NCBI RefSeq assembly: GCF_009914755.1
Contig: NC_060928.1
Direction: 5' to 3' (one strand)
Source: the human T2T-CHM13v2.0 reference genome, Homo sapiens
Length of the DNA: 64,000 bases
Of this stretch, positions 60,111 to 61,719 are shown one piece after another. Positions within the stretch are counted from its first letter, which is position 1; every line of letters starts with the position of its first letter. The notes below the pieces were generated by a model, which did not search any database, was not told the DNA's origin, and was given only the letters and a program-made list of their open reading frames with translations. Made by a program: the position numbers and the translations under genes.

Positions 60111-61216
60111 AAGTTTACACTGCACCATGTATTTAGGAATGTGAAAATCATAAGTGAGGACAGTTAACTGACCAAGTGTCAGGTAACTTTCTCTAGGTGA
60201 ATACCAGCAGGCTTCTGGGCAGTGAGGAAGTGGTTTTCCAGATTCCAGTGGCAGATTCCACAAATCTGACAATGACCCTCCAGTTCACACTCTGGAGAGA
60301 AGGAAGCATCTTTCTGGACTTTACTTCCTCCATATTAAAGTTCTAAGCACTGTAGGTTTTCCCTTTTCCTTGGTTTTTAAACTTCTGAAAAGCAGCTTGA
60401 CCTGGATATAAAAAGCTGTCATTTTCATTTTAGGAAAATAGATTTTAAAATCCTTTCTGACGAGATGAACATTGTAACAAGCAGGGTACCAGATAATCTT
60501 TGTAATGTCACTTTGACATCTAATTGGTTATAGAGTACTAGCATTTTCGTGAAGCCCAAATATAAGAGATTTTTTGATCCAAATTCTCAGACCACTTCTG
60601 AAGTTCTTCAGCAAGTTTTGAGGGATTTTTTTTGCTTTTTTTTTTTAAAGCAACAATACCTTTTTTTTTTGTTTGTTTTGCAATAAAAGCTGTTTTCTGC
60701 AGTTAGAGGAGTGAGGAAGATCAAGTAAAAGTACAGAAACACATTTTCATAACTGTTCCCAAGAAATAGCAACAAAGGGTTGAGAGAACCGCTAAGAATG
60801 TGGCAAGTACTATCTGTGACCCCACACACACGCACACGCATGCACACGCACACGTGAGCTTTTTCATGGGTGATAGGGAAAATAACAGGCAAGAAAATCT
60901 TATAAATAAGGTAAAATTACCAAAAGAAAGTTGCCTTTAGGACCAAAGCGAAAAGGAGAAAACTCTATTAAGCTCAGTGATATAGTTCTTTGTCCCTGAC
61001 ATTTGTCTGTAAGCCTAGGGGGAAGTCTCCTCTCTCCTGCCCTTACGTAAACAGGCTTTTCGGCTTTTATGGGACATTCATTTACTCTATTTCCCATTAG
61101 ATATTAAAGTCCCCTAGTGCACAAACAAATCAACAACAAAAAGAGATAACGTAGTTAGGCATGCTGAACTAGTCTTGGGTTCTTAAATGCTTTTTCATTT
61201 TCTGTAAATGTTTCAG

Positions 61217-61399
61217 AACTACATGTACTGTGCCTCTAATAGATTACATAGATGGGAATGATTATTCCATTGAACCACAGCAAGGTGGGGATGAAGATGG
61301 TTTTGCCAGAGGGGCCTGGGACTGGAGTTTACTATGGAAACGTATTCCTCTAAGCCACAAGGAAAAGGCCAAAAGAAAACATAAAACTGAACCTTATCG
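61217..61399 (+). CDS. GALNT7: GALNT7 alternative exon 6 (upstream paralogous copy, '6a', 183 nt); candidate mutually exclusive exon
   Basis: Acceptor gtttcag| and donor CG|gtaaag. Translates (R)TTCTVPLIDYIDGNDYSIEPQQGGDEDGFARGAWDWSLLWKRIPLSHKEKAKRKHKTEPY(R) with no stops or indels. Same length and phase (2/2) as 61537-61719. Not in the ORF track. Confidence 0.88.
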
Positions 61400-61434
61400 G
61401 TAAAGACTATTACTTTATTTTCTTATGTTGAATG

Positions 61435-61536
61435 TTTATCTAAGTTCTTTTTTTTTTCTTCCCCATGAACTCGTATAAATGTGTGGGTCCATACATACGC
61501 TTCCATTTGATCTTTGCTGCCATCAACACAATACAG
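61435..61536 (+). promoter_or_regulatory. Candidate distant branch point, polypyrimidine tract and AG-exclusion zone for exon 6b
   Basis: TTTAT/CTAAG (A at 61438 or 61443) is directly followed by a pyrimidine run at 61445-61464. There is no AG from 61445 until the acceptor at 61535-61536, and the sequence next to the acceptor (catcaacacaatacag) lacks a U-rich tract. Confidence 0.6.
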
Positions 61537-61719
61537 AACCATTTGCACTGTGCCGCTTATAGATGTCATAAATGGCAACACATATGAAATTATACCCCAA
61601 GGGGGTGGTGATGAAGATGGGTATGCCCGAGGAGCATGGGATTGGAGTATGCTCTGGAAACGGGTGCCTCTGACCCCTCAAGAGAAGAGACTGAGAAAGA
61701 CAAAAACTGAACCGTATCG
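61537..61719 (+). CDS. GALNT7: GALNT7 exon 6 (downstream copy, '6b', 183 nt; the version in the reference protein as I recall it)
   Basis: Acceptor aatacag| and donor CG|gtaatc. Translates (R)TICTVPLIDVINGNTYEIIPQGGGDEDGYARGAWDWSMLWKRVPLTPQEKRLRKTKTEPY(R), in frame with exon 5. Confidence 0.95.

What the first reader, a model, noticed from the sequence alone, without database searches (positions are those of the whole stretch)
61244..61390. The exon swap alters residues around the acceptor-binding region: a possible splicing switch for O-glycosylation specificity
Seen: the 16 substitutions mostly cluster in two patches, YIDGNDYSIEPQQ versus VINGNTYEIIPQG (three acidic residues versus one) and SHKEKAKRKHK versus TPQEKRLRKTK. 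The ARGAWDWS.LWKR core is retained. Established: this segment lies between the DXH and Gal/GalNAc-T motifs and corresponds to the GGFDW...F.W stretch that lines the peptide-binding groove in GalNAc-T1/T2. GalNAc-T7 is a glycopeptide-preferring follow-up enzyme, and exon swapping in the lectin domain of Drosophila PGANT9 changes substrate charge preference. Inference: the 6a and 6b isoforms may glycosylate different substrates.
Basis: inference. Interest (0 to 1): 0.7.

Follow-up and report, generated by a model that had tools for sequence, protein, structure and literature searches.

The report
Ancient GALNT7 exon switch near groove
The human sugar-adding enzyme GALNT7 has two alternative copies of one exon, both kept from sharks to humans, and the rarer copy always carries a bulky tyrosine at a position that aligns with the substrate groove of related enzymes, which likely changes which proteins get sugars; the exon pair is already catalogued, but we found no test of its function.

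Summary
Real and already catalogued; I found no functional test in the papers searched. Exons 6a (61217-61399) and 6b (61537-61719) are 183-nt tandem duplicates differing at 16 of 60 residues, listed as event 84 in PMC8373072's supplement. The 'two patches' are not significant (p about 0.16). Across 67 distinct 6a and 85 distinct 6b vertebrate sequences, only residues 332 (Tyr versus Val/Ser/Ala) and 344 (Gln versus Gly/Ala/Trp) never overlap. The acidic shift in patch 1 is conserved; patch 2 shows almost no charge difference. Residue 332 aligns to GalNAc-T2 Val255, a peptide contact, and to T12 Val259 of the catalytic GalNAc pocket; 344 neighbours T12 Asn270. Five other pocket-equivalent residues are invariant. 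Tyr is rare here in the family (2 of 129), and 6a is the derived, better-conserved copy. In mouse epidermis 6a is about 5% of transcripts and rises to 26-29% on Esrp loss. A distant branch point 39-44 nt from the 6a donor probably enforces exclusivity, but this is unmapped. A specificity switch is likely (about 0.55) and untested.

The parts
61217..61399 (+). GALNT7 exon 6a, alternative copy (residues 323-382); derived and more conserved; minor form in mouse epidermis
   Evidence: RefSeq row 'exons of other transcripts'
61245..61247 (+). Tyr332 codon, invariant in 6a; aligns to GalNAc-T2 Val255 and T12 Val259
61281..61283 (+). Gln344 codon, invariant in 6a; adjacent to the T12 Asn270 / T2 Ala266 equivalent (Gln343)
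61353..61385 (+). Patch 2 (residues 368-378), with a short predicted helix at 369-373; basic in both exons and variable between lineages
61400..61536 (+). 137-nt intron between the copies (140 nt in mouse), with no AG in the 90 nt before the 6b acceptor
61438..61443 (+). Candidate distant branch-point adenines, 39 and 44 nt from the 6a donor (predicted, unmapped)
61445..61464 (+). Unbroken 20-nt pyrimidine tract, the only run of 8 or more pyrimidines in the intron, about 72-92 nt upstream of the 6b acceptor
61497..61510 (+). Rival conventional branch-point candidates at -40 and -27, followed by a weak pyrimidine tract
61537..61719 (+). GALNT7 exon 6b (NM_017423.3; the form in PDB 6IWQ/6IWR); keeps ancestral-like Val332 (61565-61567) and Gly344 (61601-61603)

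Best explanation
GALNT7 carries a tandemly duplicated exon pair, spliced as alternatives and conserved from sharks to humans, in which copy 6a has a fixed Tyr332 and Gln344 at positions aligning with the substrate pocket of related enzymes, so the swap likely retunes which (glyco)peptide sites the enzyme accepts. Shown: duplication, conservation, the fixed residues, their alignment to T2/T12 contact positions, and regulated use in mouse (one published table row). Inferred: that Tyr332 faces the groove in GalNAc-T7; that it and the more acidic 332-344 hairpin narrow the pocket C-terminal to the acceptor and favour more basic substrates; that 6b is the epithelial form and 6a the form used when ESRP is low; and that a distant branch point under 50 nt from the 6a donor sterically blocks joining 6a to 6b.
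For: Residue 332 is Tyr in 67 of 67 distinct 6a sequences versus S39/V31/A15 in 85 6b; residue 344 is Gln in 67 of 67 versus G78/A5/W2. The same split holds in the 20 database proteins where order, not similarity, identifies the copy. T7 296-335 aligns without gaps to T2 219-258, so 332 = Val255, which is listed among the hydrophobic peptide contacts (PMC4432651 passage). T12's catalytic GalNAc pocket V259/L268/N270/Q275 (PMC6789641 passages) maps to T7 332/341/343/352; 341 is Glu in all 6a and variable in 6b. Family-wide, 106 of 129 called positions are V/I/G/T/S/A and only 2 are Tyr, one being a 6a isoform itself. Four unnamed single-segment T7-like relatives have V/S/V/I and A/G/A/G, so 6a is the derived copy; 6a forms one group in the tree (82/89). 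6a is closer to its human counterpart than 6b is in 20 of 20 pairs. The model of a gibbon 6a isoform is confident (mean pLDDT 87.7; exon blocks 89-98) and matches 6IWR at TM 0.98 of the target. Mouse MXE row: PSI 0.056/0.054 in wild type versus 0.256/0.289 in an Esrp mutant, FDR 3.6e-5; the Fgfr2 row shows that inclusion means the upstream exon. Precedent: one residue in a spliced catalytic region shifts PGANT5 kcat/KM about 2.7-fold.
Against: No kinetic, glycoproteomic or structural data on 6a were found, and the catalogue's proteomics cell is blank. Five of seven pocket-equivalent positions (343, 352, 362, 364, 366) are invariant. One of two fixed sites hitting the 7 pocket positions has chance probability 0.22, and both landing within one residue of them 0.09. 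T12 Val259 contacts GalNAc through its backbone, so a side-chain change need not matter. The T7 neighbouring-GalNAc site is itself unknown (PMC9996832 passage). No coordinates were available, so distances were not measured. Sequences come from the top 120 of 220 and of 275 hits, are teleost-rich and are not independent. The Esrp effect appears in one of three blocks of the table with low counts, and the UGG-rich 6-mers tested occur only inside 6b, not where direct ESRP control would predict. For exclusivity: the AG-free zone is unremarkable against shuffles of the T-rich intron (P = 0.086), conventional branch candidates exist at -27 and -40, and 20 gene models carry both exons in tandem.
Confidence: 0.55

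Rival explanations
1. The swap tunes overall activity, stability or donor kinetics of the enzyme, not acceptor choice.
For: Most groove residues are identical. The strand carrying 329-332 aligns to the region of T2 Ile253, the residue changed in the I253A/L310A structure (title only); its role at the donor site is recalled. In PGANT5, helix substitutions changed activity regardless of substrate.
Against: The fixed change sits at a named peptide-contact position and introduces a residue almost absent there in the family. The conserved 2-unit charge shift is local to that hairpin.
Confidence: 0.25
2. The conserved 6a surface serves a protein partner, lectin-domain packing, oligomer state or Golgi placement rather than substrate binding.
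For: 6a is unusually conserved over its whole length, including surface residues (identical in human, turtle and alligator), which resembles an interface. Near-fixed differences also occur in the 373-377 helix and loop.
Against: The only absolute differences lie at pocket-equivalent positions or beside them, and patch 2 varies within 6a.
Confidence: 0.12
3. 6a is a minor, near-redundant copy kept for RNA-level reasons; its protein does nothing distinct.
For: It makes up about 5% of transcripts in wild-type mouse epidermis, and the catalogue gives no proteomics support.
Against: Amino-acid conservation exceeds that of the major exon in 20 of 20 pairs, back to sharks, with copy-specific invariant residues.
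Confidence: 0.08

Closest known systems
GALNT7 tandem exon duplication-derived substitution, event 84 (PMC8373072 supplement; gene id also in a PMC7954323 supplementary list)
   Same: The same two exons and translations; ENST00000265000 versus ENST00000505308; last common ancestor given as Vertebrata.
   Different: A catalogue row only: proteomics cell blank, and no main-text hit for GALNT7 in the search listing. The residue-level mapping was done here.
Drosophila PGANT5A/B (bioRxiv 10.64898/2025.12.22.695686; abstract and sections 7, 9, 11 read)
   Same: Alternative splicing inside a GalNAc-T catalytic domain, where one residue and local charge shift substrate preference.
   Different: It affects the flexible loop and the following helices of a T1 orthologue. 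The GALNT7 exon covers an earlier region, the Val255-to-Trp282 wall, and arose independently.
Drosophila PGANT9A/B (PMC6115407; abstract and outline seen)
   Same: A splice switch that changes charge near the active site and thereby substrate choice.
   Different: A charged loop acting through the lectin domain (passage). In GALNT7 the conserved net shift is only about 2 charges and the key changes are steric.
GalNAc-T12 catalytic GalNAc (+3) pocket and GalNAc-T2 peptide groove (PMC6789641, PMC4432651; passages seen)
   Same: Pocket residues align to T7 332, 341, 343 and 352.
   Different: T7 has a longer loop after 344 and Arg at the T2 Trp282 position; its own GalNAc subsite is unsolved.
OGDH exons 4a/4b, distant-branch-point mutually exclusive exons (PMC7969005; passages seen)
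   Same: Short intervening intron, long AG-free zone, U-rich tract behind a candidate branch point under 50 nt from the donor.
   Different: OGDH branch points are mapped experimentally; GALNT7's are only predicted. GALNT7 was not found in that paper's text or held supplement.

Membership tests
Tandem duplicated mutually exclusive exons | Adjacent homologous exons of equal length and phase with canonical splice sites | tested here: met
   183/183 nt, 44 of 60 aa identical, AG/GT ends
Tandem duplicated mutually exclusive exons | Both copies conserved across species | tested here: met
   Both are found from sharks and skates to primates
Tandem duplicated mutually exclusive exons | One and only one copy per mRNA | tested here: inconclusive
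   Annotated alternative transcripts and a mouse MXE row support it; 20 gene-model proteins hold both copies; no reads were available
Distant-branch-point steric exclusion (OGDH type) | Extended AG exclusion zone, with the pyrimidine tract beside a branch candidate under 50 nt from the upstream donor | tested here: met
   90-nt zone versus 27-62 at the five other acceptors; tract at 61445-61464; adenines at +39 and +44; shuffle P = 0.086
Distant-branch-point steric exclusion (OGDH type) | Branch point mapped to the distant site | not testable with these tools
   Needs lariat RT-PCR; rival candidates at -27 and -40
Distant-branch-point steric exclusion (OGDH type) | Intron length and layout conserved | tested here: inconclusive
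   137 nt in human, 140 nt in mouse, from table coordinates only; no other vertebrate DNA was available
Splice-switched GalNAc-T specificity (PGANT5/PGANT9 type) | Substitutions at substrate-contacting positions | tested here: inconclusive
   332 aligns to T2 Val255 and T12 Val259; five other pocket positions are invariant; alignment only, no distances
Splice-switched GalNAc-T specificity (PGANT5/PGANT9 type) | Conserved charge difference between isoforms | tested here: met
   Patch 1 -2.84 versus -0.82 (ranges overlap: -3..-1 versus -2..0); not met for patch 2
Splice-switched GalNAc-T specificity (PGANT5/PGANT9 type) | Cell-type-biased use of the isoforms | tested here: inconclusive
   One published table row: 6a about 5% in epidermis, up on Esrp loss
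Splice-switched GalNAc-T specificity (PGANT5/PGANT9 type) | Measured difference in substrate preference and isoform-specific rescue | not testable with these tools
   No such data in paper searches

The most novel reading that the evidence does not exclude
Exon 6a encodes a second, essentially unstudied vertebrate GalNAc-T7. Its Tyr332/Gln344 wall rebuilds the catalytic-domain GalNAc pocket, so it changes or drops the need for a neighbouring prior GalNAc. ESRP-linked splicing then switches cells between an epithelial mucin-filling enzyme (6b) and a non-epithelial enzyme with other targets (6a). The reported GALNT7 'exon 6 skipping' in endometriosis would be this switch, and the Val/Tyr pair would locate T7's unknown GalNAc subsite.
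Probability: 0.2. Interest if true: 0.78.

Novelty: new member of a known kind. Interest (0 to 1): 0.5.

Why it matters
How GalNAc-T7 and T10 recognise a neighbouring GalNAc was stated to be unknown in a 2023 account (PMC9996832). A natural isoform pair with just two absolute differences, at and beside pocket-equivalent positions, gives a direct two-mutant test. Both solved T7 structures are the 6b form, so a shark-to-human conserved enzyme form may be missing from current specificity maps. It would extend splice-controlled O-glycosylation specificity from two fly enzymes to a human one, and link it to epithelial splicing control. It also bears on disease studies: equal-length exons are invisible to size-based RT-PCR, and 6b-internal primers read a switch as a loss.

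Tried and rejected
Two-patch clustering as a signal: not significant. Patch 2 as a charge switch: rejected (+4.1 versus +3.75). Nonsense-mediated decay as the exclusion mechanism: rejected, because each exon is 183 nt, so double inclusion and double skipping keep the frame. Direct ESRP control from motifs: the three 6-mers tested occur only inside 6b, the wrong place for the observed direction; RBFOX cores at 61159 and 61634 are ambiguous. Gain or loss of an N-glycan sequon: none in either exon. The primary T7/T10 specificity reviews, the T4 short-range structure paper, the surface-charge paper and an ESRP paper were not held, so T7's subsite position rests on secondary passages. Four of 239 segments with mis-spliced starts were dropped before the counts. 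No complex prediction was run, since the substrate is a glycopeptide. No earlier scan findings were available.

Full report
Observation. Two 183-nt exons lie at 61217-61399 (6a) and 61537-61719 (6b), with AG/GT ends and the same phase. They encode 60 whole codons that differ at 16 residues; 20 further codons differ silently. Exon 6b matches PDB 6IWQ/6IWR exactly, as residues 323-382. The two-patch clustering (12 of 16) is within chance, p = 0.16-0.19.

Already known. The pair is event 84 in the supplement of PMC8373072: internal, ancestor Vertebrata, proteomics cell blank, flagged as present in Lam et al. (supplement rows seen). The gene id is in a supplementary list of PMC7954323. It was not found in the held supplement of PMC9741552. 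Seven literature searches bearing on function (listings seen) returned no functional comparison of the isoforms. The library lacks most subscription papers, and three of these searches listed only the top 25-40 of many hits.

Which differences matter. Two homologue searches (top 120 of 220 and of 275 hits) gave 216 proteins and 239 exon segments. Four with mis-spliced starts were dropped, leaving 67 distinct 6a and 85 distinct 6b sequences. Only two columns never overlap: 332 (Tyr 67 of 67; Ser 39, Val 31, Ala 15) and 344 (Gln 67 of 67; Gly 78, Ala 5, Trp 2). Positions 337, 360 and 377 are nearly fixed; 334 and 341 are invariant in 6a but variable in 6b. Human differences at 324, 365 and 370 are lineage noise. 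Patch 1 is consistently more acidic in 6a (-2.84 versus -0.82); patch 2 is basic in both (+4.1, +3.75). 6a is the more conserved copy (mean entropy 0.38 versus 0.59; closer to human in 20 of 20 within-protein pairs). Copies were classed by nearest neighbour, which uses these columns, but the 20 proteins holding both copies in order show the same split. The sample is teleost-rich and not independent.

Polarity. Among 150 family representatives, the residue 31 positions after the DXH aspartate could be called 129 times: 106 are V/I/G/T/S/A and 2 are Tyr, one of them a 6a isoform. Four unnamed single-segment T7-like proteins have small residues at both 332 and 344. In a 60-column tree, 6a from shark to gibbon is one group (82/89) while 6b is unresolved at its base (few columns, long outgroup branches). 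Inference: one duplication before the shark split, with 6b staying ancestral-like and 6a fixing new residues.

Where they sit. T7 296-335 aligns without gaps to T2 219-258, so 332 is T2 Val255, one of eight residues said to govern peptide binding by hydrophobic contact (PMC4432651, passages). The T12 paper (passages) names V259, L268, N270 and Q275 as the catalytic GalNAc pocket at +3, and equates N270 with T2 A266. Using T2-like and T12-like orthologues numbered from the DXH motif, these map to T7 332, 341, 343 and 352, and T2 L270/F280/W282/Y284 map to 352/362/364/366. Of these seven positions, 332 is fixed-different, 341 is partly different and five are invariant; 344 is next to 343. This concentration is not statistically strong (0.22 and 0.09), and T12 V259 binds through its backbone. 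The -1 pocket of T2 lies beyond this exon (bioRxiv 10.1101/2020.06.25.171371, passages). An AlphaFold2 model of a gibbon 6a isoform is confident through the exon, with 332 at the end of strand 324-333 and 344 in a loop. It matches 6IWR (TM 0.98 of target, rmsd 1.7). This argues weakly against an unfolded 6a, since such models follow the alignment.

Use and regulation. In the Esrp knockout epidermis data (PMC4566030; passages and supplement rows seen), mouse Galnt7 appears as an MXE of two 183-nt exons 140 nt apart. PSI is 0.056/0.054 in wild type and 0.256/0.289 in the mutant, FDR 3.6e-5. The minus-strand Fgfr2 row shows that inclusion refers to the transcript-upstream exon, so these values are for 6a. 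The row sits in the second of three stacked blocks, probably the Esrp1-null Esrp2-heterozygous comparison (my inference from the Fgfr rows), and it is the only Galnt7 row in the file; read counts are low. ESRP 6-mers are not placed as direct control predicts. In PMC13039441 (passages and supplement seen), GALNT7 exon 6 inclusion falls in endometriotic lesions. The text says the primers flank the exon, but both listed primers map inside 6b (61553-61570 and 61680-61697), so that PCR cannot separate skipping or lower expression from a switch to 6a.

Exclusion mechanism. Both exons preserve frame, so decay cannot enforce exclusivity. The 137-nt intron has no AG for 90 nt before the 6b acceptor (27-62 nt at the five other acceptors; 17 of 4470 gaps in the window are as long). 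Its only long pyrimidine run (20 nt) directly follows adenines 39 and 44 nt from the 6a donor, inside the roughly 50-nt steric limit described for OGDH (PMC7969005, passages). Against this: shuffle P = 0.086, conventional candidates at -27 and -40, and 20 gene models with both copies. I put steric exclusion at about 0.6.

Comparison and verdict. It works like PGANT5A/B (abstract and three sections read) and PGANT9A/B (abstract), but in a different part of the enzyme and by independent origin. Membership among specificity switches is untested. T7's glycopeptide preference and putative catalytic GalNAc pocket are confirmed from passages. The exon pair is known; new here are the reduction to two fixed residues at or beside pocket-equivalent positions, the polarity, the ESRP-linked direction and the branch-point layout. 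Specificity switch 0.55, activity tuning 0.25, interface or location 0.12, redundancy 0.08. Interest 0.5.

Noticed in passing
window 61553-61570 and 61680-61697: Both 'exon 6' RT-PCR primers of PMC13039441 lie inside exon 6b although described as flanking, so the reported skipping in endometriosis may be a 6b-to-6a switch or lower expression.
   Followed up: partly
P0001-P0021: Twenty database proteins carry intact 6a and 6b in tandem, including named isoforms from turtles, alligator and fish. These are either gene-model artefacts or real double inclusion outside mammals.
   Followed up: no
window 61371-61373 (residue 374): This Lys/Leu difference aligns to position 297 of a T12-like protein; T12 R297W is a colorectal-cancer variant in a semiconserved loop.
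   Followed up: no
window 61159 and 61634: RBFOX-type GCATG cores lie 58 nt upstream of 6a and inside 6b (window rate 0.24 per 250 nt).
   Followed up: no
6b sequences of sharks and rays, e.g. P0150-P0152, P0163: Their 6b ends resemble 6a (His377, Lys/Arg374), suggesting these states are ancestral and that 6b's Thr377 came later.
   Followed up: partly
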